Shown: piece by piece, positions 9,418-63,719 of the stretch
Layout of the letters: each line of letters opens with the position of its first letter
Numbering within the stretch: position 1 is the first letter of the stretch
NCBI GenBank assembly: GCA_044229975.1
Contig: JBGARZ010000002.1
Span: 640,001 to 704,000, forward strand
Length of the DNA: 64,000 nucleotides
Reading direction: 5' to 3'
Source of the DNA: Polyangiales bacterium
Lineage (GTDB): Bacteria; Myxococcota_A; Polyangia; Polyangiales; Ga0077539
The notes under the pieces: generated by a model
What the model saw: the letters and a program-made list of their open reading frames with translations, nothing else
Databases searched by the model: none
What the model was told of the DNA's origin: nothing
Program-made: the position numbers and the translations under genes

Positions 9418-11658
9418 TCACAGCCCCGCGCGCACCTCGTCGGACGAACCCGCCGCCCCATCGGGCGCGTCGCCGATCGCGCTGGTGCGGCCGCCTTCGC
9501 CGCCCATCCCACCGCCGCCGCGCGTGCACGTGAGCCCCGAGATCGAGGGCGAGCTGCCCAGGTAGTAGACGCACACCGACGGCCCGCCGGGGCCACCTGA
9601 TCCGCTGCCGCCCGTGCCGCCCGTGCCGCCGCGCGCGCCCGCGCCGCCGCCGCCCGCGTTGCCCGCAAAGCCGCCGCCCGCGCCGCCGTTGCCACCCGCG
9701 CCGCCGCTGCCGCCGTTGCCGCCGTTGCCGCCGGAGCCGCCGCGGCCCGACGAGAGTCGACAGTCCTCGATGCGGACGTTGGACGACGCGCTCATCACCG
9801 CAAAGGACCCGCCGCCCCCGGAGCCGCCGGTGCCTGGTGCGCCCGCGCAACCGCCACCACCACCGCCACCGCCTCCGCCGCCGTTGTGGTTGACGCACGA
9901 CGGCGGAAAGATGACCAGCGCGCTGCCGCCCGTCCCCGCGCCGCCGCCGCCACCGCCGCCGCCGGCCGCCGCGTCGGTTCCGCTCACGCCGCTCGGCGCG
10001 AGGTAGATGCCCGTGTTGGGGTCCGCCGAGCCGACGCTCGACGCGCTGCGGCCGTTGTTGCCGTTGCGGCCGTCGGTGCCGTTGTTCGCCGCGCCCGCCG
10101 CGGGGGGAGACGCCGCCATCACTCCCGCGCAGGTACCGAAGCACTCGATGCACGCCGTCCCGCGCGTCGCGCCTGCGCCGCCGCCGCCACCCGCCGCACC
10201 GCCCGCCGCCGTCGCGCCGATGGCCCCGCCTGCGCCAGGGGAAGCGCCCGAGCCCGACGCGCCGCCCGCGCCGCCCGTCGCACCGCAGGGCGATGATCCG
10301 CCGCCGCCACCGTTGGGCGTACCGCCGCCCGTGCCCGTCGCGCCGCTCGCGCCCGTCGTACCGTTGGTCCCTGCCGGCCCGCTCGCCCCGCTGCCCGCGG
10401 CGATGGTGCACGCCCGCAGCGTGAGCAGCGCCGACCCGTTGACCACGCGCACGCCGTAGCTGCTGCCGCCCGGCGTGGTCGCACTGGCCGATTGGATGGT
10501 GAGCAGTTGGAGCTCGGTCGCCCGCGCCAGCTCGTTGGCGAAGACCGCCGTGGTGTCGCCCTGGATCACCGACGACGTGTCGCGCGAGCGCGTCCACCCG
10601 CTGAGGTCGTCGTAGCCGCCGTAGAGGCTCACTCCGCCGACGAGCTCGACCGAGCTGCGGTAGGTGCCCTGCGCGACGTACACCGGCCGCAGGAGCGCCC
10701 CTATGCGCGCGAGGTTGATGGCCGCGGCGATGGTCTGGAGCGGCATGTCGCGCGTGCCGGGGTTGCCGTCCGAGCCGCGCGGCGACACGAACACCGCGAT
10801 GCTCGCGTCACCATCGATGCCGTCACAGTTGGTGTCCTGAAACATCAGGTCGGGCGCGTCGGCCACGCTGCGGTTGCACTCGCAGCCGTTGGCCGGCATC
10901 CGATCGACGTCCGCGAACCCGTCGGCGCAGGTGTACGCGCAGACACCCATGGCGCACGCGGCGGTCTGGTTGGGGCCCGCGGTGCAGCGCGTGCCGCAGG
11001 TTCCGCAGTTGGCGAGGTCGGTCTGGTAGTCGGGGCCCCGGTGCGCACACATCGGCGCGGTGCCCGCGACCATGCACATGTCGACGGTGCACGCGTCCAT
11101 GTCGTCGCAGTTGTACGGGGCGCTCCGAACGCAGCGGTTGCGGCCCGCCTGGCAGCTCCAGGTGCCGGTGCAGGGGTTGCCGTTGAGGCGCGCGCAGGTC
11201 GCGTCGCCGACCTCGCAGGGCAGCTCGGTGACGCAGCCCGACTCCTGCGCGCAGAACTGATCGCCCGGGCACCGCATGTCGTTGGACGCGTGCACGCAGC
11301 GCCCCGCCGCGGCGTCGCAGCTGTCGTCCGTGCACGCGACGGCGTCGTCGCAGCTCGCGGGTCCGCCCACCACCACGCAGCGCCCGAGGCGGCACGCCTG
11401 CGCGTTGGTGCAGAGGTCGGGCGCGGTGCAGTCGTCGACCGTGCGACACGCTCGACCTGCGTCGAGGGAGACGTCCACGGCTGCGTCGACGCCGAGGTCC
11501 GCGGGAGGCACATCGACACTGGCTTCGGTGACCGTGGGGAGGTCGTCGCTGCCCGCGTCGAGCACGCCCGTGTCGAGGTCGTAGACCACCGGCGTCGGGT
11601 CGTTGCAGGCCACGAGCAGGAGAATCCCCAGCGAGAGCAGGTGGCGAGAGCGTCCCAT
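9418..11658 (-). CDS. Lipoprotein with Cys-rich repeats, beta-helix-like domain and Gly-rich (PGRS-like) tail
   Basis: Lipobox LLVAC; CDDAVACTDDSC; DTNCDGIDGD; FVSPRGSDGNPGT..PLQTIAAAI; long GGxGG tract. Confidence 0.85.
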   Translation of the reverse strand: MGRSRHLLSLGILLLVACNDPTPVVYDLDTGVLDAGSDDLPTVTEASVDVPPADLGVDAAVDVSLDAGRACRTVDDCTAPDLCTNAQACRLGRCVVVGGPASCDDAVACTDDSCDAAAGRCVHASNDMRCPGDQFCAQESGCVTELPCEVGDATCARLNGNPCTGTWSCQAGRNRCVRSAPYNCDDMDACTVDMCMVAGTAPMCAHRGPDYQTDLANCGTCGTRCTAGPNQTAACAMGVCAYTCADGFADVDRMPANGCECNRSVADAPDLMFQDTNCDGIDGDASIAVFVSPRGSDGNPGTRDMPLQTIAAAINLARIGALLRPVYVAQGTYRSSVELVGGVSLYGGYDDLSGWTRSRDTSSVIQGDTTAVFANELARATELQLLTIQSASATTPGGSSYGVRVVNGSALLTLRACTIAAGSGASGPAGTNGTTGASGATGTGGGTPNGGGGGSSPCGATGGAGGASGSGASPGAGGAIGATAAGGAAGGGGGAGATRGTACIECFGTCAGVMAASPPAAGAANNGTDGRNGNNGRSASSVGSADPNTGIYLAPSGVSGTDAAAGGGGGGGGAGTGGSALVIFPPSCVNHNGGGGGGGGGGGCAGAPGTGGSGGGGSFAVMSASSNVRIEDCRLSSGRGGSGGNGGNGGSGGAGGNGGAGGGFAGNAGGGGAGARGGTGGTGGSGSGGPGGPSVCVYYLGSSPSISGLTCTRGGGGMGGEGGRTSAIGDAPDGAAGSSDEVRAGL
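9480..10400 (-). repeat. Gly-rich low-complexity coding repeat
   Basis: Runs of GCC/CCG on the + strand encoding GGGGG/GGxGG. Confidence 0.8.
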
Positions 11659-11714
11659 GCTCGCGACGGTATCGCAGAGAGCGTCGCGACGACGAGGGTA
11701 TGCTCCGCGATCCA

Positions 11715-11999
11715 ATGACCGACACGCAGGGCATCATCGAGACGAAGCTGACCGAGGCGCTGGCTCCGACCCGGCTCACCATCGAGGACGAGGGGCACCT
11801 CCACGCGGGCCACGCCGGCGCGAAAGCCCACGGCGGCGGCCATTTCCGCGTGACCATCGTGAGCGCGGCCTTCGAGGGACTCGGGCCCGTGACGCGGCAC
11901 CGTCGGGTCTACGCCGTGCTGGCTGAGGAGATGAAGTCGCGCATCCACGCGCTGGCGCTGACCACGCTCACGCCGGCCGAAGACGCTCGCTCGGCGTAG
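11715..11999 (+). CDS. bolA: BolA family protein
   Basis: HAGHAG, HFRVTIVSAAFEG, RHRRVY, IHALAL. Confidence 0.93.
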   Translation: MTDTQGIIETKLTEALAPTRLTIEDEGHLHAGHAGAKAHGGGHFRVTIVSAAFEGLGPVTRHRRVYAVLAEEMKSRIHALALTTLTPAEDARSA

Positions 12000-12008
12000 G
12001 CGCCGACG

Positions 12009-13783: not shown

Positions 13784-13789
13784 CCCCGC

Positions 13790-14275: not shown

Positions 14276-14338
14276 CGCGGGCGACACCATCGCACAGCTC
14301 GCGCCGCGCGCGTGATAGCGTCGGCGCCGTCGACGGCC

Positions 14339-16033: not shown

Positions 16034-16045
16034 AGTCGGACGCCT

Positions 16046-18140: not shown

Positions 18141-18176
18141 TGCCGAGGTTGTGACGTCCCGTTCGCGGTCCAACGC

Positions 18177-19587: not shown

Positions 19588-19591
19588 CGGA

Positions 19592-22709: not shown

Positions 22710-24494
<1,785 letters not shown>

Positions 24495-25372: not shown

Positions 25373-26727
25373 TCCATCACCTCGATGTCTCCGCCCAGTC
25401 CACGCAGCACCGCCGCGAAGTCCGGGTCGCTCGTGTCGACGCACGCGACGTCGTCGATGGTCGTCTCGCCGTCGGCCGCGAGCGCCAGCACCGCCGCCGC
25501 CATCGCGATGCGGTGATCGCCGCGCGTCGCCACCACGGCCCCGCCCTTCGGTCGTCCGCCGCGCACCAGCAACCCGTCCGCCGACGCCGCGTGCTCGATG
25601 CCGAAGGCCGCGAGCATCGCCGCGAGCGCTGCCACCCGATCGCTCTCCTTCACCCGCAGCTCGGCCAGGTCTTCGAAGCGGCTCTCGCCCGGCGACACCG
25701 CCGCCGCCGCCACCAGCGCCGGGATCTCGTCGATGCACCGCGTGGTCAGCTCGCCCGCGACATGCGCCGCCCGACGGAGCGTCCCCGTGCCCGCGACGCC
25801 GACGTGGAGGTCGCCCACCGGCTCGCCGCCGACCTCTCCCTTCGGTGCCACGCCCGCGCCGCCCCCCTGGTCGCGCAGCGCTTCGAGGAAGCCAGTGCGC
25901 GTCGGGTTGACGCCCACGCCGCGCACCTGGATCCGCGATCCCTCCACCACGTGCGCCGCCGCCACCCAGAACGCCGCCGCCGACGGATCGCCCGGGATCT
26001 CCAGGTCGAGCGGCGCGAGCGCACCGTCCCATCCGCTGGGGTCGAGCACGCACATCGGCCCGAGCGTTCGCAGCGGAACGCCCATCGCCAGCAGCATCCG
26101 CTCGGTGTGGTCGCGCGAGAGCGTGGGCTCGCGCAACGAGGTCTCGCCGTCCGCGAAGAGCCCGGAGAGCAGCAGGCACGACTTCACCTGCGCGCTCGCC
26201 GCGGCCAGCGACTCGTCGCTCGCGAAGAGCCTTCGTCCGCCCGTGAGACCGCGGATGACCAGCGGCGCCGTCTCGTCGCGTCGCACCGGGTCGATGGTCC
26301 CTTCGATGCTCGCGCCGCGGGCGCGCAGCGGTCGCGTGATGCGACCCATCGGGCGACGCGAGAGGGAGGCATCGCCAACCAGCGTCGTGTCGAAGCCCTG
26401 CGCAGCAAGAACGCCCGCGACCAGCCGCATGGACGTGCCCGCGTTGCCGCAGTCGAGCGTCGCGTCGGCGGGCGCACCGAGCCCACCGAGGCCGCGGCCC
26501 TCCACCCTCACCGAGCGCCCGTCCAACTGGTGCGTGGCGACACCGAGCGCCTCCATGATGGCGCGGGTGCGGGCCACGTCGTCGCCCGGCGAGAGCCCGC
26601 GCAGCACGCTGTCACCCTCGGCGAGCGACGCGAGAATCCACGCCCGGTGCGAGATGGACTTGTCGCCCGGGACGCGGAAGGCTCCGCGCAAGGGACGGGT
26701 CGCGGGGCGGACGATCCAACGGCGCAT
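25369..26727 (-). CDS. aroA: EPSP synthase
   Basis: PGDKSISHR, DCGNAGT, SAQVKS, RDHTERML, RVKESDR, DHRIAM. Start at 26727 or 26739. Confidence 0.96.
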   Translation of the reverse strand: MRRWIVRPATRPLRGAFRVPGDKSISHRAWILASLAEGDSVLRGLSPGDDVARTRAIMEALGVATHQLDGRSVRVEGRGLGGLGAPADATLDCGNAGTSMRLVAGVLAAQGFDTTLVGDASLSRRPMGRITRPLRARGASIEGTIDPVRRDETAPLVIRGLTGGRRLFASDESLAAASAQVKSCLLLSGLFADGETSLREPTLSRDHTERMLLAMGVPLRTLGPMCVLDPSGWDGALAPLDLEIPGDPSAAAFWVAAAHVVEGSRIQVRGVGVNPTRTGFLEALRDQGGGAGVAPKGEVGGEPVGDLHVGVAGTGTLRRAAHVAGELTTRCIDEIPALVAAAAVSPGESRFEDLAELRVKESDRVAALAAMLAAFGIEHAASADGLLVRGGRPKGGAVVATRGDHRIAMAAAVLALAADGETTIDDVACVDTSDPDFAAVLRGLGGDIEVME

Positions 26728-26795
26728 GCGCGGCGGCATACACGATCGACCCCCTCGGCGTCACGAGCGCGCGCCGGGCTGATACAACCGTCGCC

Positions 26796-28502
26796 ATGGA
26801 CTTCGCCCGCCGCTCCATCGTCGCCGCCTGTCTGCTCTCGCTCGCCGCCGGCTGCGACGACGCACCGACCACACCAGTCGATGCCGCCGTGTCCGACCTG
26901 GGCAGCGATACGGGCTCCGACCTCGGCTTTGCTGTCGATGTGCCTGAAGCCGTCGATGCGGGCGCGGCTGATGTGGTCGACGCGAGCGCCTTCGGCCCGG
27001 GACCGTATGGCCTTCGCCCGCGCGACCTCGCGGGCCCGTTTACCGTGATGACCGAGGCGGGCCCGTGGTCACTGCAAGAGCACTTCACTGGCGAGGACAG
27101 CTACGTGTTCATCGTGGTGACGGCGGCGAGCTACTCGACCAACCTGCTCGCCGGAAGCATCGAAGAGCTCATCGATCGCTCACCCCGCAACGTCCACTAT
27201 TTCTTCCTCACCACCACGGCGACGACGCAGCTCGAAGCCTTCCAGCAGCGCACCCAGGAGGCGCTCGGCAACCTCGGCGAGGAAGACCGCGCGCACTGGG
27301 CGCAGCGCTTTCACTTCGTGAGCGAAAACCTCACGACGATGCAGAACTGGCTCGGCGAGCTCTACCGCGCGCGCCGCAACACCACGAACATGGTCCCGCG
27401 CTACGAGTCGGTGCAGTGGGCGGTCGACCGCACGCAGCACATCCGCGAGGTGGGCCAGCTCGGTCGCCTCGCCTCTGGGGGACTGCGCCTCGAGCTCCCG
27501 CTGCTCGCCAACGAGGCCCGCTACTACAACTTCGAGTACGCCCGCGAAGCCGAGCTCGCGTCGCACCCCGCCACCACCGTCACGCTCCTCGACCACGCCA
27601 TGGTCGTCGACAACATCGACGTCGACGCGACGCTGCCCGACGCGACCGCAATGGCGAGCTTCGACACGCTCGAAGTCGACCTGAGCACCGACTGCGTCAA
27701 CCGCCGCGACGGTGACTGCGGCGCGTGGGACTACCTCTCGCACCTCTGGCTGTGCTCTGAAGCGACACCCTCCGCCGACGCAGGCGCCCCCTCTCCCGAC
27801 GCGGGACCGCAGTGGCGCTGCGACACCGAGCTCGCCCGCTGGATCACCACCTACTGGCGCGAGGGCCGCTGGGTCACCGACATCTCGGGCGTTCTTCCGC
27901 TGCTCCGCGCGGGCGGGCGGCAGCACCTCCGCTGGTACGCGTCGCGGCAGTTCGATCCGCGGCCCGCTCCCTATGTCGCGAGCCTCTCGCTGCGCTTCGG
28001 CAACCGCGCGCGAGCGGTGCGTCCCTTCGAGACGCGGCTGCTCTACCAGGGCGGCAACCTCAACGCGACGTGGACCGAGCGGCACCCCGCGCAGCGCTTC
28101 ACCGTGCCCGCCGACACGCGCCGCGCCGAGCTCTACGCGCTCATCACGGGTCATGGTTCGGAGACGAGCCAGTGCGCGGAGTTCTGCAACCACGGGCACC
28201 ACCTGCGGCTCAACAACAACGACCACGTCATCGACTTCCCTGAGGCGCGCTCGGCCGACGGGTGCAACGACATGGTCGACCAGGGCGTGGTGCCCAACCA
28301 GCACGGCACCTGGTACTTCGGCCGCGGCGGCTGGTGCCCGGGGTGGGACGTTCGGCCCGTCGTCATCGACGTCACCTCCGAGCTGCGCATGGGCGGCGAC
28401 AACGAGCTCACCTACGGGGTCACCGTCGACAACCGGGCCATCACCTCGATGGCGGGCTACGGCAACGTCGTCGTCACCGCCTACCTCGTGCTGTCGCGCT
28501 GA
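26796..28502 (+). CDS. PNGase F-related lipoprotein
   Basis: Lipobox LAAGC; CGAWDY; ELARWITTY; ITGHG..CAEFC; GTWYFGRGGWCPG. Confidence 0.8.
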   Translation: MDFARRSIVAACLLSLAAGCDDAPTTPVDAAVSDLGSDTGSDLGFAVDVPEAVDAGAADVVDASAFGPGPYGLRPRDLAGPFTVMTEAGPWSLQEHFTGEDSYVFIVVTAASYSTNLLAGSIEELIDRSPRNVHYFFLTTTATTQLEAFQQRTQEALGNLGEEDRAHWAQRFHFVSENLTTMQNWLGELYRARRNTTNMVPRYESVQWAVDRTQHIREVGQLGRLASGGLRLELPLLANEARYYNFEYAREAELASHPATTVTLLDHAMVVDNIDVDATLPDATAMASFDTLEVDLSTDCVNRRDGDCGAWDYLSHLWLCSEATPSADAGAPSPDAGPQWRCDTELARWITTYWREGRWVTDISGVLPLLRAGGRQHLRWYASRQFDPRPAPYVASLSLRFGNRARAVRPFETRLLYQGGNLNATWTERHPAQRFTVPADTRRAELYALITGHGSETSQCAEFCNHGHHLRLNNNDHVIDFPEARSADGCNDMVDQGVVPNQHGTWYFGRGGWCPGWDVRPVVIDVTSELRMGGDNELTYGVTVDNRAITSMAGYGNVVVTAYLVLSR

Positions 28503-28648
28503 CGGAGTCGTCCTACGAGATGACGCACAGCGCGCCACTGCGACGGACTCCGGCGAACCGGCGCTGACGGGGTGCCTGGTCCGTGTGCCGGTTCACAGGA
28601 GGTCCCGGCTCTCGTCGGGGTCGTCCCCTGCGGGTTAGGGTGGCGTCC

Positions 28649-29419
28649 ATGACGTCTGGCCTCGGAGTGGGACTCTTCTTCGTCCTGTTGATCGGCGGCA
28701 TGGCCGTGATGTTCATCTGGGCCTGGCTCGGCGGCCGCAGAGAAGATCGCGAGCGGCGGGAGGTGGTCGAGCGTTGGTACGCCGGAGTGGAGCGGAGGCG
28801 TGAGGAGGCGCGCGCAGAGGCTCGCACTCACCTGGCGTCGCTCTCGCCGGACGAGATCCGAGCGCGGCTCCGTGTGTCGGTCTGTCGGCACGCCCCGAGC
28901 GAGGCGCAGCTCCCGCCGGGTAGCTGGCTGTTGGCCGAGGACCTCGCCTGCCGCCTCATCGTCGAGGAGTTTCCGTTGCAGGAAATCGATCCCGACGTGC
29001 GCGCTCGCCTGCCCGAAGACGACGCGTCGCTCGCGCGAATCGCGCTGGAGCAGACCTTCGCCGCGCCGCTGGAGGCCGGCGCTCAGCGCGCGCCCAACGG
29101 CTGGCTCGCCGCTCCCGACCGTCTCCTCGGCGCGGTCCCGTCGGTGCTGGCTGGGGCCGGCGCCGACGTCGTGTGGAGGGCGCTTCCGGTCGACGTCGAA
29201 GCACTCGCCGCACTCGCCGCGAACACCCCGATCGAGGGGCCGCTGAAGCACGCGATGTTCTTCTGGGACGGCGCGCGCCTCGAACAGATCTCCGCGTACG
29301 CTCACACGGTCATCGGGCCGACGACGCCACACTTCACGCTTCGGCTCCCCGCGTCGATGCGCGCGATGACCGACCTGCCGACAGATCCGACCGGACGGAT
29401 CGGCGTTCGCCGGCGCTGA
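28649..29419 (+). CDS. Hypothetical membrane-anchored protein
   Basis: N-terminal TM helix and charged coiled segment; TAGGGT 7 nt upstream of the ATG. Confidence 0.65.
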   Translation: MTSGLGVGLFFVLLIGGMAVMFIWAWLGGRREDRERREVVERWYAGVERRREEARAEARTHLASLSPDEIRARLRVSVCRHAPSEAQLPPGSWLLAEDLACRLIVEEFPLQEIDPDVRARLPEDDASLARIALEQTFAAPLEAGAQRAPNGWLAAPDRLLGAVPSVLAGAGADVVWRALPVDVEALAALAANTPIEGPLKHAMFFWDGARLEQISAYAHTVIGPTTPHFTLRLPASMRAMTDLPTDPTGRIGVRRR

Positions 29420-29835: not shown

Positions 29836-30852
29836 TTACTGTTGCGCGGTGCCGCCGAGCTCTTGCAGCGCGGAGCTGATGCGCAGCACGCGCCCCGCCT
29901 CGACCGAGTTGGCCTGCACCGTCAGCGTCACACGCTCGCCATCGGCCCGAGCCACGACGCCCTCGCGCAGCAGCCGACCCAGCCCGAGGATGCGCACCAT
30001 CACCTGACCCGCGAGCTCGCGCGTTGACGCATCCACGAGCCGAACGATCTCCCGCGCCGCCGCCTCGGTGTGCGCCTGCCCCGCCGCGCGCACGCTCACG
30101 TCACCCGGGACGTCGCCCCACGCCACGAGCCGATCGAGCCCCTCGCCCGTGCGCGCCACGCCCCGCGTCGGAACCCTCACCCGCGCCCGAATCGCCGCGA
30201 GGTCGGCCGCCACCTGAAGCGATCCATGGCGGCCGTCGACCAGCGCCCACAGGTCGTTGAAGCGGTCGTCGTCGCGCACCGAGCGCCGCTCTTCGCCGAC
30301 GAGCCGCGCGGCCACGCGGCGCACCAGCGAGCGCTCCATCACCACCACCACGTCGCTCGCCGGAAACATGTACGCCCGCTGCCCGACGCTGACGTACGCG
30401 ATGCCCTGTTCGGTGCCCTCTTCCGGTGACACGCCGGGCGTCCGCTCGCGCGCCGCCTGCAACACGGCGGCGCGGTCGTAGCGACCTCGCGCGACGATGA
30501 TCGGCCAGCCCACGGTGGCTGCCGTGCCGGGCGGCAGGTACACGCCAAAGGCGAGGTGATCGGCCTCGTGGAGCGCGTCGAAGCCCAGCTCGCGGCGCAC
30601 GCCACCGACGTCGGCGCCGAGGGTCACGGCCAGCTCCAACGCCCCGTCGAAGTGCGGCGAGCGGCGCGCCTCGGTCAGCTCGAAGCGACCCCACGCCACG
30701 GCGCCGGGCGGCAGGAGCGCGAGCAGCTCGCCGTGCACGTCGGGCGGTCGCGGAGCCTCGGCGCGGGCGGTGGCAGCGGTGCCCGTCGAGGCGCACCCGA
30801 CCGGCGCGAAGAAGCAGAGGAAGAGCGCGAAACCATGGAGGGAGCGGGTCAC
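29836..30852 (-). CDS. Hypothetical lipoprotein
   Basis: Hydrophobic N-terminus ending PVGC, LLALLPPGA. GTG start estimated. Confidence 0.7.
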   Translation of the reverse strand: MTRSLHGFALFLCFFAPVGCASTGTAATARAEAPRPPDVHGELLALLPPGAVAWGRFELTEARRSPHFDGALELAVTLGADVGGVRRELGFDALHEADHLAFGVYLPPGTAATVGWPIIVARGRYDRAAVLQAARERTPGVSPEEGTEQGIAYVSVGQRAYMFPASDVVVVMERSLVRRVAARLVGEERRSVRDDDRFNDLWALVDGRHGSLQVAADLAAIRARVRVPTRGVARTGEGLDRLVAWGDVPGDVSVRAAGQAHTEAAAREIVRLVDASTRELAGQVMVRILGLGRLLREGVVARADGERVTLTVQANSVEAGRVLRISSALQELGGTAQQ

Positions 30853-30920
30853 GGCGCGCGTTCTATCACGGCTGCCCGCCGACGCCGTGGCGACCATGGT
30901 AGGGCTCCGGGCCAACCGTC

Positions 30921-33495: not shown

Positions 33496-35561
33496 CGCGC
33501 CGCGCTGAAGTCGCAGCTTCCCGGCGGGGTGTTCATCGCGCAGTTGCGCGGGAGCACGACCCGCGCGCGCCCCGCCCAGGCCGAGCGCAGGAAGGTCTCG
33601 ATCTGCTCAAGGGCCGCGTCGGTGTGCAGGCCCGAGCGCGCCGCGAAGCCGTGGATGTCCGAGGCGTCGAGGATGTTGGAGGGCCCGCGGTACTGCGTGA
33701 TGGTGGTGCGACCGTCGGCCGCCTCGACGCTCATCACGCCCGCCATCGGGGTGAGCACGGCGCCGACCTGCACCGCGCCGAGCGACGACGCGGCAAACTC
33801 CGTCCCGAGGTTGGGCAGCACCGGGTCGCCCATCGCCTCTTGAATGAGGAGCGGGTGGGGGTTCTCCTGCGCGTCGGCCCAGACGGCGCCGTCGACCTCG
33901 TCCCAGTGGGTCTGGCTCACGGCGAGCTGGAGGAAGATGTCGAGGGTGCTCCCGTAGATGCGCTGGAGACCCGCGCGCACGAGGTCGAAGAGCACCGAGC
34001 GGATGAGGAAGTGCGACCACGCCGACCCCGGCACGTTGGCCACGCCCGCGAGAAACAAGGGCTCGGCGTTGACCATGGTGATGCCCATGGTTCCGCCGAG
34101 GGAGCCGCCCGCCCAGGTGAGCGTATCGGGGTTCGATCGGCGACCCGCGGAGGGGTTCACCATGCCGCCAACCATCGGCGCCGCGAGCACCTCGCGGAGG
34201 TTGGACGCCGCCGGAATCGCCGCCCCGTCGGGCGTCACGCCGCGCATCGAGTGGATCACCGCCATGCCCCCGGCGAGCGCCTGGAGCAGCACGCTGTCGG
34301 CCTGCTCGACGCCGAGGTTCATCCGCGCGAAGCCCAGGAAGGTCGGGGCCATCTCCGTCTCGGTGAGCCCGTCGAAGCGGATGTTGATCTTGGCCGCGCC
34401 CGCGTTGGTGAGGAGGTGGTCGAAGGACGAGTCGGTCACCTCGCCGCCCATGCCATGCCCGAACACCACCGCGGGGTAGTTTCCTGTTCCGCCGCGTGGC
34501 AGCAGCACGCGAAAGGGCGCGTCGTAGGTCATGCCCGCCACGGTGACTGGCAGGCCGGCCTGCCGGGTGAGAAGCCGCTGGTCGTTCACCCAGCGTGGCA
34601 GACCGACGATGTGCCCGTTGACGATGAGCGACGCCGTCGGGTCGGTCGGCGCGCTCACCGAGTCGATGCGAACCGTCGCCGTCCCCGCGCGCAGCGCCTC
34701 GATGGCCCGCTCGCGCATCGTCCGAAGCGCCACCAGCGGCTGGTCGTGCGAGCGCGTGACGAAGCCCCACACCCGTAGGACGTGGGCGGGGTCGATGCCC
34801 GCCCGCATGAGCAGCGTACGGGTCGGAGCGTGCCAGGCGCGAAGGTGCTCCTGGGCAGGCGTTCGCGGCGGTTGCAGGCCAAGCGCAGCGCGGGTCTCGT
34901 CGTTGGCGCGGAGGGTCGCGCCGTCGCTCGAACGGAGGTCGTCGGTGATGACGACGATGTGCTCCGTGGCGGCGGCGAGGAGCGTGCGGGGATAGGCGAT
35001 GAGACCGGTCTCGGGGTCGCGGGTGTCCTGCGGCGCGACCGTGACCGTGCGCACCGGGACGAGCGATCCTCGCATGGGACCATCGGCCACGATGAGTCGC
35101 ACCGCGCCGGTGGTTCCGTCACCGAGAGACTCCGCGGCGAGGTTGGCCGAGAAGGCCGTGATGAGCGGCGTCGCGCGAGAGAACCCGTCAGCGCGGTTGA
35201 GCCCCCCGACGTCGTCGGTGCGCACCACGCCCGCCTGCGGGATGTCGAGTCGCACGCGCGTCGCCTGCACCTCGTCGTCGCGCATGAACGACGTCGACGG
35301 CCACGGCATGAGGCACCGCGCCGGGTCGGTCGGATCACACCCGAGCGCGAGCGCCTGCCGCTCCCCCTCGCGGCGATCGGCCACCGGAACGATCGGCCCG
35401 ACGTCCTCGCCCACGTCAGCACCACCGACGTCGTTCTTCGCGGCGGTGTCGGTCGTGGGCACGTCTGCGACCGAGGCGTCGACGGTCGGCGCGGGGTCGT
35501 CGCATCCGACCAACGGCAAGGCAGAGAAGGCCAGGCCCAGGAGCGCGCGTCGTAGCTTCAC
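33492..35561 (-). CDS. Lipoprotein with Ig-like N-domain and alpha/beta-hydrolase (lipase-like) domain
   Basis: LVGC lipobox; CLMPWPS..DGFS; FGHGMGG; GGSLGG; GDPVLPN; DIHG. Confidence 0.75.
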   Translation of the reverse strand: MKLRRALLGLAFSALPLVGCDDPAPTVDASVADVPTTDTAAKNDVGGADVGEDVGPIVPVADRREGERQALALGCDPTDPARCLMPWPSTSFMRDDEVQATRVRLDIPQAGVVRTDDVGGLNRADGFSRATPLITAFSANLAAESLGDGTTGAVRLIVADGPMRGSLVPVRTVTVAPQDTRDPETGLIAYPRTLLAAATEHIVVITDDLRSSDGATLRANDETRAALGLQPPRTPAQEHLRAWHAPTRTLLMRAGIDPAHVLRVWGFVTRSHDQPLVALRTMRERAIEALRAGTATVRIDSVSAPTDPTASLIVNGHIVGLPRWVNDQRLLTRQAGLPVTVAGMTYDAPFRVLLPRGGTGNYPAVVFGHGMGGEVTDSSFDHLLTNAGAAKINIRFDGLTETEMAPTFLGFARMNLGVEQADSVLLQALAGGMAVIHSMRGVTPDGAAIPAASNLREVLAAPMVGGMVNPSAGRRSNPDTLTWAGGSLGGTMGITMVNAEPLFLAGVANVPGSAWSHFLIRSVLFDLVRAGLQRIYGSTLDIFLQLAVSQTHWDEVDGAVWADAQENPHPLLIQEAMGDPVLPNLGTEFAASSLGAVQVGAVLTPMAGVMSVEAADGRTTITQYRGPSNILDASDIHGFAARSGLHTDAALEQIETFLRSAWAGRARVVLPRNCAMNTPPGSCDFSAAR

Positions 35562-35606
35562 GGGCGCACGCTAGCGCAGGCCCCGCCGGGCCGCGAAGTG
35601 CGGACA

Positions 35607-36836: not shown

Positions 36837-38554
36837 ACCACGTCGAAGCTGTAACCGCCGTCGATGTACGCCTGCGCGGCGACGCCCTTGCGGAGCTCGT
36901 CGTCGTTGTCGTCGAAGGCCGCGAGATTGGCCTGCATGCGCCGCTCGGCCATGTGGGCGAAGGCGGACGTGAGCTCCACCTCGCGTCGCGCGCCTTCTTC
37001 GCCCTTTCGCTCGATCGCCCGCGTGGTGCGTGAGATCACCGCCGTCAGCGCGTAGAGATCCGTCGCGAGGTCGGCCACGCGGCGCTGCGTGTACTGCATC
37101 TCGGCGATGTCCTTGCCGTGCTTGCGCAGCACCTTGTCGACGCTCTTCTGGAAGTGCGTGACGTACTCCTCCACGAGCACGACCTCGCGGCGCAACGCGT
37201 GGTGCGCGCGGTTCATCCGCTCGCGACCGAAGGTCGTACGCGCCCGCTGCATCGCAAACTCGTACATCAGCCCCATGCCCTTGATGGGCTCGCGGATCGC
37301 GCGCACCACCTCGGCCAGCTTGCGACCGGGGCCCTGCATCCCGCTCAGGGCCACGAAGGCGCGCAGCACCTCGTTGGTGCCCTCGAAGATCGGGTTGGCC
37401 CGCGCGTCACGCAGCATGCGCTCGCACGGGTGCGGCTGGGTGTACCCGGCGCCCGCGGCGATCTGCATGGCCTCGTCAGCCACGCGCCACAGCACCTCGC
37501 TGCCAAACACCTTGCAGATCGCGCTCTCCAGCGACCAGTCGGGCACCTTCGCGTCCACCATCCCGGTGGTCAGGAACACCATCGACTCCAGCGCGAAGGT
37601 CTCCGCCATCATGCGGGCGATCTTGTCCTTCATCATCCCGAACTCGCCGATGGGACGACCAAACGCACGACGCTCCTGCGCGCGGTCGACGGACAGCCGG
37701 ATGAGCCGACGGCACATGCCCACCGCCCCCGCGGCCAGCGACAGGCGCCCGCCGTTGAGCACCTCCATCGCCACGCGAAACCCTCGACCGGTCTCACCCA
37801 GAACGTTCTCCGACGGCACCTTGGCGCCCTCGAAGCGCAGCCACGGTGTCGACGTGGCGCGCAGCCCCAGCTTGAGATCGTTGGGTCCGCGAACCATCCC
37901 CTCGCCCGCCTCCACGAGGAAGGCCGTGAGCCGCGGCTTCGATCGCATGTCGAAGGCCGTCGTGCGCGCGAAGACGGTCACCACGTCGGCGTTGGCGCCA
38001 TTGGTGACCCACACCTTGGTGCCGTGCACCGTCCACGCCTCGCCGCCCCGATCGAGGTCGGCCCGCGTCTGGATGCCCGCGGCGTCGCTGCCCGCTCCGG
38101 CCTCGGTGAGCGCGAAGGCCCCGATGCGCTCGCCGCGCGCCATCGCCGGAAGAAACCTCCGCCGCTGGGCCTCGGTGCCGAAGAGCAGGAGCCCCGCGGT
38201 GCCGAGCGTCAGGTGCGCGCCGACCGTGACCGCGAGCGAGGTGTCGTAGCTGGCCAGCTCCTGGATGACGCGGGCGAGCCCCGTGGCGCCGAGGCCCGAG
38301 CCGCCGTACTCGGTGGGGACGCTCAACCCGAAGAGCCCGAGGTCGCGCATGCCCTGGAGGACGGGCGCCGGAATCTCCGCATCGCGATCGAAGGCGGCGG
38401 CGTCGACGTGCTTGCGCGCGAAGGCCCGCACCCCGTCGAGGATGAGCCCGATGTGCTCCCGCTGCTCCCTCCCGGGCTCCGGGTACGGAAACACCATCTC
38501 TTCGGGAATCACCCCGTAGAACACGGACTTGAGGAAGCTCTCCTCCATCGCCAT
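36833..38554 (-). CDS. Acyl-CoA dehydrogenase (long, VLCAD/ACAD9-like)
   Basis: FALTEAGAGSD, GTKVWVTNG, KLGLRA, R.AFGRPI, IFEGTNEVLR, extra C-terminal domain. Confidence 0.93.
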   Translation of the reverse strand: MAMEESFLKSVFYGVIPEEMVFPYPEPGREQREHIGLILDGVRAFARKHVDAAAFDRDAEIPAPVLQGMRDLGLFGLSVPTEYGGSGLGATGLARVIQELASYDTSLAVTVGAHLTLGTAGLLLFGTEAQRRRFLPAMARGERIGAFALTEAGAGSDAAGIQTRADLDRGGEAWTVHGTKVWVTNGANADVVTVFARTTAFDMRSKPRLTAFLVEAGEGMVRGPNDLKLGLRATSTPWLRFEGAKVPSENVLGETGRGFRVAMEVLNGGRLSLAAGAVGMCRRLIRLSVDRAQERRAFGRPIGEFGMMKDKIARMMAETFALESMVFLTTGMVDAKVPDWSLESAICKVFGSEVLWRVADEAMQIAAGAGYTQPHPCERMLRDARANPIFEGTNEVLRAFVALSGMQGPGRKLAEVVRAIREPIKGMGLMYEFAMQRARTTFGRERMNRAHHALRREVVLVEEYVTHFQKSVDKVLRKHGKDIAEMQYTQRRVADLATDLYALTAVISRTTRAIERKGEEGARREVELTSAFAHMAERRMQANLAAFDDNDDELRKGVAAQAYIDGGYSFDVV

Positions 38555-38664
38555 GGCGTGGAACTACCACGCGATCGCGCCGCGGGTCATCCGTCCCGAA
38601 AAGGCCACCGCGCGGCGTCGAGAGCCCTTCCAAGAACAGCTCCCCCCGTGGTGTCATCCCTCCG

Positions 38665-54136: not shown

Positions 54137-54831
54137 GGAGACCGCTCGGCGCGCGCGATCGATCCCTCACGATCGACCCTCCACCACGATGCGCCGTCGA
54201 CCCTGATCCAGAGGTTGTCCTGGTAGGTGGTCATCACCGGCATCGCGGCGCGCGCTCGCTCGGCGATGGTGCGGACGGAGGTTCCGCCGTCGGCCGACAC
54301 CTGCACCATGCCGCGAACGCTCGACCACGCGACCACCCGTCCGAGCACGGCCACGTCGACGAGCATGTCGCCCACGTCGCGTCGGGTGCGCCAGGTCTGC
54401 CCGCGGTCGTTGGAAGTCCAGACCGTTCCGTTGGTGCCGACCGTCGCGCCGAAGCCGCTCGCGTCGTCGAAGGCCATGGCACGCGGCGACTGCGAGCCGT
54501 CCCACCGCGCCGCCGACCAGTGCCCGCCGCGGTCGTCGGTAAACACCAGCCCGCTGTCGATGGCCGCGAAGACGCGCTCACCGAGGTTGGCGAAGTTGTG
54601 GATCTGCGTCGTGCCGAAATCCACCGGCGGCGCCATGCCGTGCAGGCTCCAGGTCACCTGCGACAGGCGCTGCGGAACGCCGACCAACGCGAACAGCGGC
54701 GACGGCTCGCGGTGCGCCGAGATGCCCTGACCGAGCGCGACGTCGGCGGGCGTCGTGCCCCAGCCGATGGCCCACGCGGTCGTCCCACCGAGCAAGCACG
54801 CGCCCATCACCGCCCAGGCCATGGTCTTCAT
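54124..54831 (-). CDS. Secreted BNR/Asp-box (YCF48-like) beta-propeller protein
   Basis: Signal peptide; TDDRGGHW, SNDRGQTW, SADGGTS Asp-boxes. Confidence 0.75.
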   Translation of the reverse strand: MKTMAWAVMGACLLGGTTAWAIGWGTTPADVALGQGISAHREPSPLFALVGVPQRLSQVTWSLHGMAPPVDFGTTQIHNFANLGERVFAAIDSGLVFTDDRGGHWSAARWDGSQSPRAMAFDDASGFGATVGTNGTVWTSNDRGQTWRTRRDVGDMLVDVAVLGRVVAWSSVRGMVQVSADGGTSVRTIAERARAAMPVMTTYQDNLWIRVDGASWWRVDREGSIARAERSPWDG

Positions 54832-54865
54832 GATCGCTGACGGTAGCGCCGCAGCGGTCCTGTCG

Positions 54866-56287: not shown

Positions 56288-57063
56288 AGGTCGAGCTCGA
56301 GCGAGACCGGGCAGTGGTCGCTGCCCTTCTGGTCGGGGTGGATCTGCGCGTCCTTCACCTTCGAGACGAAGCCTTCGCTCACGAGGAAGATGTCGATGCG
56401 CCAGCCGACGTTCTTGGCGCGCGCCGCGCCGCGCTGCGACCACCAGGTGTAGAGCGACTTCTCGCCGGGGTGACGGTCGCGGAAGACGTCCCTCATCCCG
56501 GCCGCGAGGTAGCCCTGGAAGTCTTCGCGCTCCTCGTTGGTAAACCCCGGATTGGTGCGGTTGGTCTTCGGGTTGGCGAGGTCGATCTCCTCGGGCGCGA
56601 CGTTCATGTCGCCGACCACCACGACGTTCTCCCCGCGGGCGATGCGGGCCTTCATGTTGGCGGCGAGGTCCTGCGCGAAGGCCCGCTTGTAGGGCATGCG
56701 AACGAGCCCCGTCGACGCGTTGGGGAAGTACCCCGCGATGAACGTGAACCCCATGCCCTCGCTGACGATGAGCCGCCCCTCGACGTCGTACGCCTCCGTA
56801 CCAACCCCCTGGGTGTGCTTGAAGCCGAGGCCCTTGCGGGTGAGCGTGGCCGAGCCCGAGTAGCCCTTCTTCGAGCGCGCCGGAAACCAGCTCACGTCGT
56901 GCTTGCGGGTGAGCTCGTCGCGCGTGGCGAAGTCGAGCTCCTCCCACTCCACGCGAATCTCCTGGAGCGAGAGCACGTCGGGCTTCGTCGCGTCGAACCA
57001 ATCGAGAAACCCCGACTTGAGCGACGAGCGGAAGCCGTTGACGTTCCAACTGACGATCTTCAT
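56284..57063 (-). CDS. xth: Exodeoxyribonuclease III
   Basis: SWNVNG, LQE, GYSG, YFPN, GDMN, YTWW, GWRID, SDHCP. Confidence 0.96.
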
Positions 57064-57095
57064 GGGCGCGGACGATAGCGGTAGGCTGCCGCCCC

Positions 57096-59351
57096 GTGAA
57101 GGTCATCAGCATCGGCGCCGGGCCCGCGGGCCTCTACTTCAGCATCCTGGCCCGACAACGATTCCCGTCGTGGGACATCACCCTCCTCGAACGCAACGCC
57201 ACCGGCGACACCTTCGGCTGGGGCGTGGTGTTCTCCGACGAGACGCTCGCGCACCTGCTCGACGCCGACCCGCCCACGCACGCGAAGATCACCGACAGCT
57301 TCGCCCACTGGGACGCCATCGACGTGCACGCCCGCGGTGAGAGCTTTCGCTCCGCGGGCCATGGCTTCTCGGGCATCGCGCGCCGTCGCCTGCTCGACAT
57401 CCTCGAAGCGCGCGCCATCGAGCTCGGCGTGAAGATCGAGCACGGCGTCGACCTCTCCAGCCTCGATCGGGTGCGCGAGCTCGCGGGCGAGTGCGACCTG
57501 CTGCTCGGCGCCGACGGCCTGCGCTCCATCGTGCGCTCGGCGTGGCGCGACGACTTCCGCCCGAGCTTCGACGTCCGCAAGTGCCGCTATCTCTGGCTCG
57601 GCACCCCGAAGATCTTCGACGCCTTCACCTTCGCCTTCGCCGACAACGAACACGGGATGTTCCAGGCGCACGCGTACCGCTTCGACGACGGGATGAGCAC
57701 CTTCATCGCCGAGTGCGACGAGGAGACCTTCGCGCGCTCGGGCCTCGGCGACGCGCCCATCGAGGAGACCGTGGCGTACCTCCAGCGGCTCTTCGCGCCG
57801 TGGCTCGATGGTCAACCGCTGCTGGTCAACCGCTCGCAGTGGATCCAGTTCGTGACGGTGCGCAACGAGCACTGGCACCGCGACAACGTCGTGCTCCTCG
57901 GCGACGCCGCGCACACGGCGCACTTCTCCATCGGGTCGGGCACCAAGCTCGCCATCGAAGACTCCATCGCCCTCGTCGACGCCTTCGCGCGATCGGCCTC
58001 ACCCGCCGAGGCGCTCGCCCGCTACGAGCGCGAGCGGCGCCCCATCGTCGAACGCACCCAGAAGGCCGCTCAGGACTCGCTCGTTTGGTTCGAGCAGGCG
58101 CGTCGCTACCGGGCGCTGCCGCCGTGGCAGTTCGCGTTCAGCCTGCTCACGCGCTCCAAGCGCATCACCTTCGAGAGCCTCGGGGTGCGCGACCCCGCCT
58201 TCGCCGACGACATCGCCCGCCGCTTCGCCGCGGATGCCCGCGTCTCCGTCGCGCCCGAGCAGCGACCGCCGCCGCCGATGTTCACGCCCTTCAGGCTGCG
58301 CGAGATGACGCTCGCCAACCGCGTCGTGGTGTCGCCCATGTGCATGTACTCGGCGGTCGACGGAACGCCCACGGACTTCCACCTCGTTCACTACGGCTCG
58401 CTCGCCCAGGGCGGCGCCGGGCTCGTGATGACCGAGATGACCGACGTCTCCGCCGAGGGCCGCATCACCCACGGCTGCGCGGGCATCTACACCGACGCCC
58501 ACACCGCGGCGTGGAAGCGCATCGTCGAGTTCGCGCATGGGGGCAGCGACGCGCGCGTCGGGTTGCAGCTCGGTCACGCCGGCCGCAAGGGCGCGACGAA
58601 GCTGATGTGGGAGGGCATCGATGAGCCGCTGACCGATGGCGGTTGGGAGCTCCTGGCCCCGAGCGCGCTGCCGTACTTCCCGCACAGCCAGACACCGCGA
58701 CCGATGGATCGCGCGGACATGGACCGTGTGATCGCGCAGTACGTCGCGGCGACCAGGCGGGCGGTCGAGGCGGGCTTCGACTTCATCGAGCTGCACCTCG
58801 CGCACGGCTACCTGCTCGCGAGCTTCCTGTCGCCGCTCACCAACCTGCGAACGGACGGCTACGGCGGGTCCATCGAGGCGCGGGCGCGCTTCCCGCTGGA
58901 GGTGTTCGACGCGGTGCGGAGCGCGTGGCCCGAGGCGCGACCGATGGGCGTGCGCGTGTCGGCGACGGACTGGCATCCGCACGGCATCACCGACGACGAC
59001 CTGCGGGCGCTCGCGTCGATGTTGAAGGCCCGCGGCTGCGACATCATCGACGTGTCGAGCGGGCAGACGGTGCCGGAGGGAAAGCCGGTGTTCGGTCGGA
59101 TGTTCCAGACACCGTGGAGCGACCTGGTGCGCAACGAGGTCGGCATCGCGACCATGGCGGTGGGCAACATCCAGGGCGCCGACCAGGTGAACAGCATCCT
59201 CGCATCGGGGCGCGCGGACCTCTGCGTGCTCGCTCGGCCGCACCTCGCCGACCCCTTCTGGACGCTGCACGCCGCGGCGTCACAGGGATGGGACGCGCAG
59301 CGCTGGCCGGTGCAGTACCTCGCCGGTCGAAGCGCCCTGCCCCGCCCGTGA
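57096..59351 (+). CDS. Bifunctional salicylyl-CoA 5-hydroxylase / 2-aminobenzoyl-CoA monooxygenase-reductase
   Basis: [35 protein letters not shown], fused to an old-yellow-enzyme domain ([15 protein letters not shown]). Confidence 0.92.
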
Positions 59352-59409
59352 CAGAACACGAACCCCCTGTGTTAGCGTTGCTCCGAACCACCCATCGGAG
59401 GGACCGTCC

Positions 59410-59667: not shown

Positions 59668-59724
59668 CCTCGATCTCCCCGCCGTCGACTCTCCTCCCCC
59701 GACTCCCCCCGACCAGCGCCCCGA

Positions 59725-62256: not shown

Positions 62257-62262
62257 CGGGCG

Positions 62263-63669
62263 TTACTCCTGCGGGAGCTGCGGGGCCAGCGTGAGGACGC
62301 GGCGCAGATAGGTGCCGGGCGATGCGGGGTCGGCCGGCGGACGGAGGTCGATGACCTCGAGCGCGCCGTCGAGGAAGTCGACGACGTACAGAAACGGTTG
62401 ACCCGGCGACGGGTCGAGAATCGCTTGATGCGGCCCGCGACGGGTGACCACCTGACCGACGACCCGGCGCTCGTCGGGGTCGATGATGGTCACGCGGCGA
62501 GCGTCGAAGGACACCACGAGCACCTGGGTGCGACCGTTGACGGTGCGCACCGCGAGGCGCGACGGACCTTGCGGCACGGGGATGGCGTCGATGACGTTGG
62601 CCGCCGTGGGGTTGGCGGGGTCGAGGCTCACCGTGAGCAGCGCCTCGGGGGCGCGCGAGGCCACGAAGGCACGCCGCTTCGTCGGGTCGGGGTCGAGCGC
62701 GATGGCGCGGCTGTCGCCGCCGCCCGCGAGCCCGCGAACCTGGATGAGGGCGCTGCGGTAGAGGAAGGGGCTGGCGTCGCGGAGGACTTCGTTGCCCGCG
62801 TACGCCTGGATGAACGTAAACGTCGCCTCGGCGCGGCTCGTCAGCATCCACGTCGAGCGCTCGGCGCTGCCATCCGCTCGCGGGAGCAGCACCGCGCCGC
62901 TGAGGCCGGGCGAGAGGCTGTTGAGCACGCTGAGCAGCACCGGCGCGCCGCCCCCGCCGTTGACGGCGCTGTCGCGGAGGAGCGACGCGCGCGGCACGCC
63001 GGCCTCGTTGGTCTGGTGGGCGACGAACACCCAGCCCCGCGCGGGGTCGAGCGAGATGGACGACGGGTCGGGCGGCAGGCGCGCCGCGGTGGGGCTCTGC
63101 GACGTGTCCGACCCGGCGCGATGGTCATCGCCGCACAGCGCGAGCGGACCAGCGGCGCCGCAGTCGAGGCCGCCCTGGTCGTCGAGGTCGAACCAGGTGA
63201 TCGACCCGTCGCCGCGCACGGCGACGTAGAGGCGCGTGCGGTCGGGGTAGCGCGCGACGGCGCTGTCGACGGCGTAGGGGCTGATGCGACGCACCTGATC
63301 GCCCCGGATGAAGGCGCGCGCCTCGCACACCGACGCGCCAGGCTGGTCGCGGTCCGCCACGCAGCGGATGGCAGGCGCCGCGGGCAGCGCCGCGCAGCGG
63401 GAGTGCGCCGGGTCGGTGATGCGCGTGCGGAGGCAGGTCAGGTCGAGCGGCGCGACGGTGCCGCCGTTGTAGCGGAGGTCGAAGTCCGAGCTGGTGACGT
63501 AGAGCCAGTTGCCGGACGGAGAAGCCGCCGCGCTCACCGGGTAGAAGAACACGTCGCCGGGCGGGTCGATGCCGATGTTGGACGGGCAGCCGACACTCGC
63601 CAGACCGAGCGCGAGACACGTCGAGCGGAGCGCGCGGCGCAGGGTGGAGGCAGTGGGGCGGGCGCTCAT
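62263..63669 (-). CDS. YncE-like beta-propeller lipoprotein
   Basis: SVGC lipobox; FFYP..WLYVTSSDFDLRYNGG; RLYVAVRGD; LYVVDF. Confidence 0.8.
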   Translation of the reverse strand: MSARPTASTLRRALRSTCLALGLASVGCPSNIGIDPPGDVFFYPVSAAASPSGNWLYVTSSDFDLRYNGGTVAPLDLTCLRTRITDPAHSRCAALPAAPAIRCVADRDQPGASVCEARAFIRGDQVRRISPYAVDSAVARYPDRTRLYVAVRGDGSITWFDLDDQGGLDCGAAGPLALCGDDHRAGSDTSQSPTAARLPPDPSSISLDPARGWVFVAHQTNEAGVPRASLLRDSAVNGGGGAPVLLSVLNSLSPGLSGAVLLPRADGSAERSTWMLTSRAEATFTFIQAYAGNEVLRDASPFLYRSALIQVRGLAGGGDSRAIALDPDPTKRRAFVASRAPEALLTVSLDPANPTAANVIDAIPVPQGPSRLAVRTVNGRTQVLVVSFDARRVTIIDPDERRVVGQVVTRRGPHQAILDPSPGQPFLYVVDFLDGALEVIDLRPPADPASPGTYLRRVLTLAPQLPQE

Positions 63670-63719
63670 CGGGCGCGCAAGCTAGTGGAGCAAACCCACG
63701 AATTCAAGCGATGCCGCCA

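What the first reader, a model, noticed from the sequence alone, without database searches (positions are those of the whole stretch)
11658..63684. Window-wide signature of leaderless gene expression
Seen: a TANNN(T/C) hexamer sits 6-10 nt before many start codons with no Shine-Dalgarno in between. TACCGT-7-ATG 11658(-), TATGCT-10-ATG 11715(+), TATGCC-7-ATG 26727(-), TACAAC-7-ATG 26796(+), TAGGGT-7-ATG 28649(+), TAGAAC-7-GTG 30852(-), TAGCGT-6-GTG 35561(-), TAGTTC-6-ATG 38554(-), TACCGT-8-ATG 54831(-), TATCGT-8-ATG 57063(-), TAGGCT-8-GTG 57096(+), TAGCTT-9-ATG 63669(-). TA is rare at this GC content. Known: this geometry marks leaderless mRNAs in Actinobacteria and Deinococcus-Thermus. Inference: a large share of first-in-operon genes in this myxobacterium-like organism are leaderless, which I do not know to be described as a dominant mode in this group.
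Basis: partly seen in the sequence, partly recalled or inferred. Interest (0 to 1): 0.7.

Follow-up and report, generated by a model that had tools for sequence, protein, structure and literature searches.

The report
Leaderless and short-leader genes, myxobacterium
An estimated fifth to a quarter of operon-leading genes in this uncultured myxobacterium have a promoter box only 6-14 bases before the start codon, so their mRNAs likely begin at or a few bases before that codon; this known way of expressing genes is already tabulated for related myxobacteria.

Summary
All 12 sites are at the stated coordinates, and the signal is genome-wide. With motif-blind gene calls, TANNNT lies 5-10 nt before 324 of 2601 divergent first genes (46 at 25-30 nt) but 23 of 1385 operon-internal genes. 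A gene-free count peaks at 6-10 nt. The hexamers behave as sigma-70 -10 boxes: TTG is enriched 18 bp upstream, Shine-Dalgarno (SD) motifs are nearly excluded, and 13 of 14 are kept in a congener. It is not dominant: about 22% of first genes, and this window is the richest of 154 bins. It is not unreported: a published table lists a -10 motif before ORFs in 9 of 12 Myxococcota genomes I looked up, and the scan noted it in another myxobacterium (e1-6960730). One detail I did not find in print: 56-66% of the 6-10 nt excess lies at 8-10 nt in this family, against 7-9% in Streptomyces and Arthrobacter, so about half of these mRNAs may carry 1-7 nt leaders. No transcription start was measured.

The parts
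11656..11671 (-). TACCGT -10 box (11666-11671), 7 nt, ATG of a 746-aa protein with no NCBIfam match; divergent from bolA-like gene, 56 nt between starts
11699..11717 (+). TATGCT -10 box (11699-11704), 10 nt, ATG of BolA-family protein; predicted leader of about 3 nt
26725..26740 (-). TATGCC (26735-26740), 7 nt, ATG of aroA; weaker TANNNC class; an alternative ATG at 26739 overlaps the hexamer
26783..26798 (+). TACAAC (26783-26788), 7 nt, ATG of a 568-aa protein; TANNNC class
28636..28651 (+). TAGGGT -10 box (28636-28641), 7 nt, ATG of a 256-aa protein (motif-blind caller preferred GTG 28667)
30850..30865 (-). TAGAAC (30860-30865), 7 nt, GTG of a 338-aa protein; TANNNC class
35559..35573 (-). 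TAGCGT -10 box (35568-35573), 6 nt, GTG of a 689-aa protein
38552..38566 (-). TAGTTC (38561-38566), 6 nt, ATG of an acyl-CoA dehydrogenase; TANNNC class; ATGACC 18 bp upstream
54829..54845 (-). TACCGT -10 box (54840-54845), 8 nt, ATG of a 235-aa protein; GTGACG 18 bp upstream
57061..57077 (-). TATCGT -10 box (57072-57077), 8 nt, ATG of exodeoxyribonuclease III (xth); back to back with the next site, 32 nt between starts, 4 nt between hexamers
   Evidence: TANNNT at 8 nt in all 6 same-genus orthologues, and at 8-11 nt in 5 of 13 listed other-genus orthologues
57082..57098 (+). TAGGCT -10 box (57082-57087), 8 nt, GTG of a PRK08255-family oxidoreductase
   Evidence: TANNNT at 8 nt in the same-genus orthologues; SD motif instead in two other-genus orthologues (L087, L091)
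63667..63707 (-). TTGAAT -35-like box (63702-63707), 17 bp, TAGCTT -10 box (63679-63684), 9 nt, ATG of a 468-aa protein
   Evidence: orthologue in G002 keeps both boxes with a 10-nt gap to ATG

Best explanation
The TANNNT hexamers sit 6-14 bases before start codons across this genome and are likely the -10 boxes of ordinary sigma-70 (RpoD) promoters, so an estimated fifth to a quarter of first-in-operon mRNAs would begin at the start codon or up to about 7 bases before it and would be translated without a Shine-Dalgarno site. Shown: position, enrichment, absence from operon-internal genes, a TTG signal 18 bp upstream, G-rich extended -10 and C/G-rich discriminator, near exclusion of SD, conservation in a congener. 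Inferred: RNA polymerase starts mostly at the 8th base after the hexamer (range 7-9). Gaps of 6-7 nt are then zero-leader mRNAs (AUG or GUG), 8 nt is zero or one base, and 9-14 nt gives leaders of about 1-7 nt that strongly prefer AUG. From established knowledge, not tested: such mRNAs are bound at the 5' end by 70S ribosomes with initiator tRNA.
For: Enrichment in first genes only: 324 of 2601 divergent against 23 of 1385 internal; mixture estimate 0.287, 0.278, 0.236, 0.081 and 0.0 for divergent, same-strand 41-100, 11-40, >100 and <=10 nt gaps, with shifted controls 0-0.035. Gene-free peak. TTG at an 18-bp gap in 35 of 586 near hexamers (1-11 at other gaps) and 76 of 1113 distant ones; genome-wide 214 against 75-122. 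Both T1/A2 and T6 are needed: NANNNT 728 against 605/595, TNNNNT not enriched. SD in 10 of 586 against 1168 of 5057; SD rises from 1-4% at gaps of 6-14 nt to 19% at 15-18 and 35-37% at 19-30, where it would fit inside a transcript. Start position: in 368 hexamers 13-40 nt from a start, C peaks at base 7 (0.58) and A rises at base 8 (0.10 to 0.18); in the 14-nt class, purine 0.19 at base 7 and 0.62 at base 8, n=37. GTG is 73 of 205 starts at 6-7 nt and 49 of 395 at 9-14 nt (p=1e-10), the same direction as measured in D. deserti (176 of 916 at zero leader, 18 of 258 at 1-5 nt; PMC4007540). Starts supported by orthologue alignment: 7 of 46 divergent against 0 of 45 internal; motif kept in 13 of 14 orthologues against present in 3 of 81 others. 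One RpoD above cut-off with the usual region-2 sequence.
Against: No transcription start or N-terminus was measured; RNA runs were contigs of relatives holding 5-9% of the words and showed no start. The -35 signal is present in only about 6% of near hexamers. The start-site signature is modest and is weak in the 154 TTG-18-TANNNT sites without a near ATG. Part of the SD exclusion is geometric, since both motifs compete for the same bases. Conservation in a congener partly reflects plain sequence similarity; in two other genera only 1 of 2 and 1 of 2 kept the motif. The matrix used for the fraction was learnt on the divergent genes themselves, and my start calls are imperfect. The 16S rRNA is not assembled, so the anti-SD tail could not be checked.
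Confidence: 0.85

Rival explanations
1. All of these mRNAs are strictly leaderless: polymerase slides its start downstream across the C/G-rich discriminator to the A of ATG even at 9-11 nt, so the long gaps reflect start-site plasticity and not short leaders.
For: A is scarce after the hexamer (0.00-0.11 at bases 1-6); in the 8-nt class base 7 is 91% pyrimidine; the rise of ATG over GTG at long gaps also fits a preference for A as first nucleotide. [quoted passage not shown]
Against: The excess runs smoothly to 14 nt (38, 41, 22, 21 genes above background at 11-14), beyond the range of -10 to start distances I recall. The 10- and 14-nt classes show pyrimidine at base 7 and purine at base 8. 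Gap length differs between orthologues in 6 of 13 pairs, by 1-4 nt.
Confidence: 0.2
2. TANNNT is an mRNA-level, non-SD translation signal, like the A-rich motif of GeneMarkS-2 group B genomes, and the real promoters are further upstream.
For: It lies at the same distance as an SD and replaces it.
Against: Group B motifs occur before internal genes too (PMC6028130); here 23 of 1385 internal genes, mixture estimate 0.0. The same hexamer with the same TTG at 18 bp occurs 20-120 nt upstream of other genes. At 57063/57096 the starts are 32 nt apart.
Confidence: 0.05
3. Chance, composition or stop-codon artefact: TA stands out in intergenic DNA of a 71% GC genome, upstream TAG/TAA stops mimic the motif, and the reader picked examples.
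For: This window is the richest of 154 bins. TANNNC/A/G are only about 2-fold enriched. At window 16031 the TAG is the stop codon of rseP.
Against: 7-fold position-specific enrichment of TANNNT with a sharp edge between 5 nt (10 genes) and 6 nt (98 genes); strongest in divergent genes, which have no upstream stop; only 9 of 92 cases in the 11-40 nt class use the stop codon; no excess in Alsobacter (2 per Mb).
Confidence: 0.03

Closest known systems
Leaderless genes with the -10 motif next to the ORF in Deinococcus-Thermus (PMC12340547; D. deserti dRNA-seq, PMC4007540)
   Same: TANNNT just upstream of ATG/GTG, positions 1, 2 and 6 carry the signal, SD used by other genes, weak -35, GTG rarer when there is a short leader.
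   Different: There the motif is mostly 6-7 bp from the ORF and covers about a third of genes, with 916 zero-leader against 258 short-leader mRNAs. Here the mode is 8 nt, 48% of the excess lies at 9-14 nt, and about a fifth of genes are involved.
GeneMarkS-2 group C genomes / TA-like leaderless genes of Actinobacteria (PMC6028130, PMC3160421)
   Same: Pribnow box at first genes, SD at internal genes. Excess of TANNNT-(6-10)-ATG is 67 per Mb here, 77 in Streptomyces rectiviolaceus and 61 in Arthrobacter hankyongi.
   Different: Only 7% and 9% of the excess is at 8-10 nt in those two, against 60% here; two Solirubrobacterales genomes resemble this one (53-55%). Group C is given as 25-50% of transcripts; this genome is at the lower edge.
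-10 motifs before ORFs in cultured Myxococcota (PMC12340547 Table S7)
   Same: Same motif (e.g. YGSTANSNTS, BGNTANSNTS) and similar share: Sandaracinus 1087 of 8699 ORFs, Polyangium 1086 of 9591, Chondromyces 881 of 8172, Nannocystis 1665 of 10129, Labilithrix 597 of 10540, Haliangium 487 of 6873, Sorangium 269 of 9620, Anaeromyxobacter 449 of 4514 and 405 of 5881.
   Different: No significant -10 motif listed for Myxococcus xanthus, M. stipitatus or Vulgatibacter. The table gives no distances, and the main text has no word starting with 'Myxo'.

Membership tests
Bacterial leaderless genes (group C type) | TANNNT box localised about 6-10 nt before start codons | tested here: met
Bacterial leaderless genes (group C type) | Signal at first-in-operon genes, SD at internal genes | tested here: met
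   324 of 2601 against 23 of 1385; SD 519 of 1385 internal
Bacterial leaderless genes (group C type) | Hexamer has the context of a sigma-70 promoter (-35 at fixed gap, RpoD present) | tested here: met
   TTG peak at 18 bp; RpoD
Bacterial leaderless genes (group C type) | Starts almost only ATG or GTG | tested here: met
   448 ATG, 134 GTG, 4 TTG of 586; my caller penalises TTG, but SD genes have 24 of 847
Bacterial leaderless genes (group C type) | Measured transcription start within 0-5 nt of the start codon | not testable with these tools
   only contigs of relatives were found
Bacterial leaderless genes (group C type) | Genome-level share of 25-50% of transcripts | tested here: inconclusive
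   about 22% of first genes, 29% of divergent ones; upper bound 37-45%
Strictly leaderless (zero-base leader) majority as in Streptomyces and Deinococcus | Gap concentrated at 6-7 nt | tested here: not met
   28% of the excess at 6-7, 25% at 8, 48% at 9-14; Streptomyces 93% at 6-7 of the 6-10 excess
Non-SD ribosome binding motif (group B type) | Motif precedes internal genes as well as first genes | tested here: not met
70S-mediated leaderless initiation | Translation from 5'-proximal AUG by undissociated ribosomes | not testable with these tools
   established knowledge (PMC4007540 passage); needs biochemistry

The most novel reading that the evidence does not exclude
In this family and several related myxobacterial lineages, half or more of the 'leaderless' mRNAs really carry 1-7 nt leaders with no SD, and the leader length drifts freely between orthologues. 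Their ribosomes would then tolerate very short leaders that are rare and strongly inhibitory in Caulobacter, Mycobacterium and Haloferax, which makes cultured Polyangia a natural system for finding what sets the leader-length limit of 5'-end initiation.
Probability: 0.3. Interest if true: 0.5.

Novelty: new member of a known kind. Interest (0 to 1): 0.22.

Why it matters
Practical: about a fifth of genes here, and similar or larger shares in most genomes of the class sampled, need a -10-aware start model for correct annotation, and expression constructs for these secondary-metabolite-rich bacteria cannot assume Myxococcus xanthus or E. coli habits. Conceptual: it confirms that leaderless expression at actinobacterial density is a lineage trait of part of Myxococcota, known so far from tables more than from text in the papers I could search. 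Only the long-gap, short-leader feature would be new biology, and it is a quantitative shift.

Tried and rejected
16S rRNA and anti-SD tail: not assembled (genome 93% complete). RNA evidence: 7 metatranscriptome runs, word share 0.05-0.09, contigs only; 4 of the 7 were laid and gave no place where molecules begin and mostly rpsA of relatives; no use for start mapping or habitat. The search tool's own control (pattern read backwards) fails: Streptomyces scored 388 against 400, so I used distance controls. Free EM with start re-selection over-assigns (the 'promoter' class degenerates to codon periodicity in internal genes), so 37-45% is kept only as an upper bound. Overlapping bidirectional -10 boxes: 14 cases share the TA, about the 13 I expect by rough arithmetic from the 7% A at that position; rejected. 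Folding of the first 40 nt does not separate -10 from SD genes (-7.9 against -7.8 kcal/mol, 400 sampled each). Family-level conservation was too sparse (2 informative genes each in G018 and G019). GeneMarkS-2 supplement: 0 hits for six myxobacterial genera in 6 files, file 1 not searchable, so I did not see its group C list. The genome list behind PMC3160421 Table 2 was not in its one supplement. One search translated the wrong strand and was redone. No structure, complex or large protein search was run, as none bears on a promoter geometry.
Full report
1. Observation. All 12 strings are at the stated coordinates and start ORFs of 94-751 aa. The window lies in a 10.0-Mb, 39-contig, 93% complete genome of about 71% GC. 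Nearest relatives of the PRK08255-family protein at 57096 (84-86% identity) are labelled Myxococcales, Myxococcaceae or delta proteobacterium, the next (56-62%) include Labilithrix and Polyangiaceae. So it is a myxobacterium, probably of class Polyangia (inferred, no marker tree made). I wrote a gene caller that uses in-frame hexamer statistics and start-codon type but no upstream motif (8022 genes). It agrees with 10 of the 12 starts.

2. More than chance. Among 7028 genes of at least 100 aa with score 40 or more (994 of the 8022 calls left out as short, weak or at contig ends), TANNNT lies 5-10 nt before 324 of 2601 divergent first genes (46 at 25-30 nt), 118 of 1053, 96 of 836 and 58 of 1153 same-strand genes with gaps of 41-100, 11-40 and over 100 nt, and 23 of 1385 genes with gaps up to 10 nt. 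Without any gene calls, TANNNT-N(s)-ATG gives 91, 224, 266, 310, 223, 202, 146, 166 for s=5-12 against 89-128 for s=16-30; TANNNT-CTG is flat and TANNNC-ATG shows only codon periodicity. The window is the richest of 154 bins of 64 kb: 13 of 41 non-internal genes against 874 of 6457.

3. What the hexamer is. TTG is enriched exactly 18 bp upstream, both of near hexamers (35 of 586) and of hexamers 20-120 nt from a start (76 of 1113), and genome-wide (214 of 10369 against 75-122 at other gaps). Flanks are G-rich before and C/G-rich after. SD motifs occur in 10 of 586 genes with a near TANNNT against 1168 of 5057 without (partly because both need the same bases), and appear only when the gap reaches 15 nt or more. 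Upstream stop codons explain 9 of 92 cases in the 11-40 nt class. In 172 own genes whose start aligns with the start of an orthologue in 0.8 Mb fetched from three relatives, TANNNT at 6-10 nt precedes 7 of 46 divergent and 0 of 45 internal genes; in the congener G002, 13 of 14 orthologues keep it against 3 of 81 others, while in two other genera 1 of 2 and 1 of 2 do, and the two misses show an SD-like GGAGG instead. A single RpoD passes the family cut-off. This is the anatomy of a sigma-70 -10 box (established knowledge), not of a ribosome binding motif.

4. How many genes. With a fixed matrix and a second-order intergenic background, the estimated share is 0.287 (divergent), 0.278, 0.236, 0.081 and 0.0 (internal), with 0-0.035 in windows shifted upstream. 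My arithmetic on these gives about 22% of non-internal genes and about 18% of all genes. Wrong start calls lower this; an EM that may re-choose starts gives 37-45% of divergent genes and is circular. SD motifs precede 1178 of 5643 non-internal genes before chance correction. So it is a large minority, not the dominant mode.

5. Geometry. Above background, 28% of sites are at 6-7 nt, 25% at 8 and 48% at 9-14 (630 genes). Three indirect signs put the start near base 8 after the hexamer whatever the gap: C at base 7 and a rise of A at base 8 in 368 more distant promoters; purine 0.19 then 0.62 at bases 7 and 8 in the 14-nt class; and GTG falling from 73 of 205 starts at 6-7 nt to 49 of 395 at 9-14 nt, as between zero-leader and short-leader mRNAs in D. 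deserti. Gap length differs in 6 of 13 orthologue pairs. Against: the signature is weak in 154 sites with TTG at 18 bp and no near ATG. I therefore read gaps of 6-7 as zero leader, 8 as zero or one base, 9-14 as leaders of about 1-7 bases (inferred).

6. Lineage spread. In 250 other genomes of the phylum, the excess of the 6-10 nt over the 21-25 nt count has z above 3 in 41 of 48 genomes of the same class (median 69 per Mb) and 94 of 202 outside it (median 21 per Mb), by family from 5 of 5 (f27), 9 of 9 (f46), 10 of 14 (f47) to 1 of 24 (f26) and 0 of 12 (f37). The test loses power in AT-richer genomes and kin are not independent. This genome is typical of its class.

7. Comparison with print. 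PMC6028130 (passages; supplements searched without hits, one file unreadable) defines group C and calls it rare in Proteobacteria (104 of 1854). PMC3160421 (passages with Table 2; one supplement) gives 8 of 33 delta-proteobacteria with 15.8% leaderless genes, unnamed. PMC12340547 (outline, passages, sections 11 and 12, rows of Tables S6 and S7) shows experimentally that the motif is a -10 box in Deinococcus, and its Table S7 lists it in 9 of the 12 Myxococcota genomes I looked up, not in two Myxococcus or Vulgatibacter. PMC12754779 (passage) notes that pexR may be leaderless in myxobacteria. PMC8844925 (passages) maps M. xanthus starts and does not use the word leaderless. PMC8459731 and PMC4007540 (passages) give the short-leader benchmarks. 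Searches for a paper on leaderless genes in this group (listings only) found none devoted to it; the library lacks most subscription journals. The scan itself noted the same pattern in a marine myxobacterium (e1-6960730), which pointed me to PMC12340547.

8. Verdict. The one open point is the long-gap class, which may mean unusual tolerance of very short leaders (0.3; interest 0.5 if shown).

Noticed in passing
window 7918-9375 (+) and 22710-24455 (-): Two ribosomal protein S1 family genes 13 kb apart: a 581-aa one above the rpsA cut-offs and a 485-aa one below them, best match PRK13806. S1 acts in SD-independent initiation (recalled); the second copy has TAAGAG 10 nt before its ATG and no SD.
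   Followed up: partly
genome-wide: The -35 to -10 gap peaks sharply at 18 bp, not the 17 bp cited for E. coli and B. subtilis. I recall 18 bp being common in Streptomyces; not checked.
   Followed up: partly
window 57064-57095: 32-nt divergent region holding two back-to-back -10 boxes 4 nt apart, each 8 nt from its start codon; each promoter's -35 region falls on the start of the other gene; layout kept in the same-genus orthologues.
   Followed up: yes
genome-wide: Genes only 11-40 nt behind a same-strand gene carry the near -10 box almost as often as divergent genes (0.236), so many apparent operon-internal genes likely have their own promoter overlapping the upstream gene's end. Example: 54831 (-). 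At 16031 (+) the TAG of TAGAGT is the rseP stop codon.
   Followed up: partly
genome-wide, positions -2 and -1 before start codons: C at -2 in 60% and C or G at -1 in 87% of 2601 divergent genes; a dipyrimidine before starts is described in PMC3160421.
   Followed up: no
window 11658(-), 26796(+), 33486(-), 35561(-): Several large proteins begin with a signal peptide, a lipobox-like Cys and an acidic D/P/T-rich stretch; the three I scanned (11658, 26796, 35561) have no NCBIfam match. They look like a family of surface lipoproteins.
   Followed up: no
G000 C34:27284-27982 (L140): A second RpoD-like match below the cut-off has one TAA stop inside the matched stretch: broken gene, split gene or assembly error.
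   Followed up: no
G290, G291 (Solirubrobacterales, loci L063, L077): These two actinobacterial genomes have the same long-gap profile (53-55% at 8-10 nt) as this family, unlike Streptomyces and Arthrobacter.
   Followed up: no
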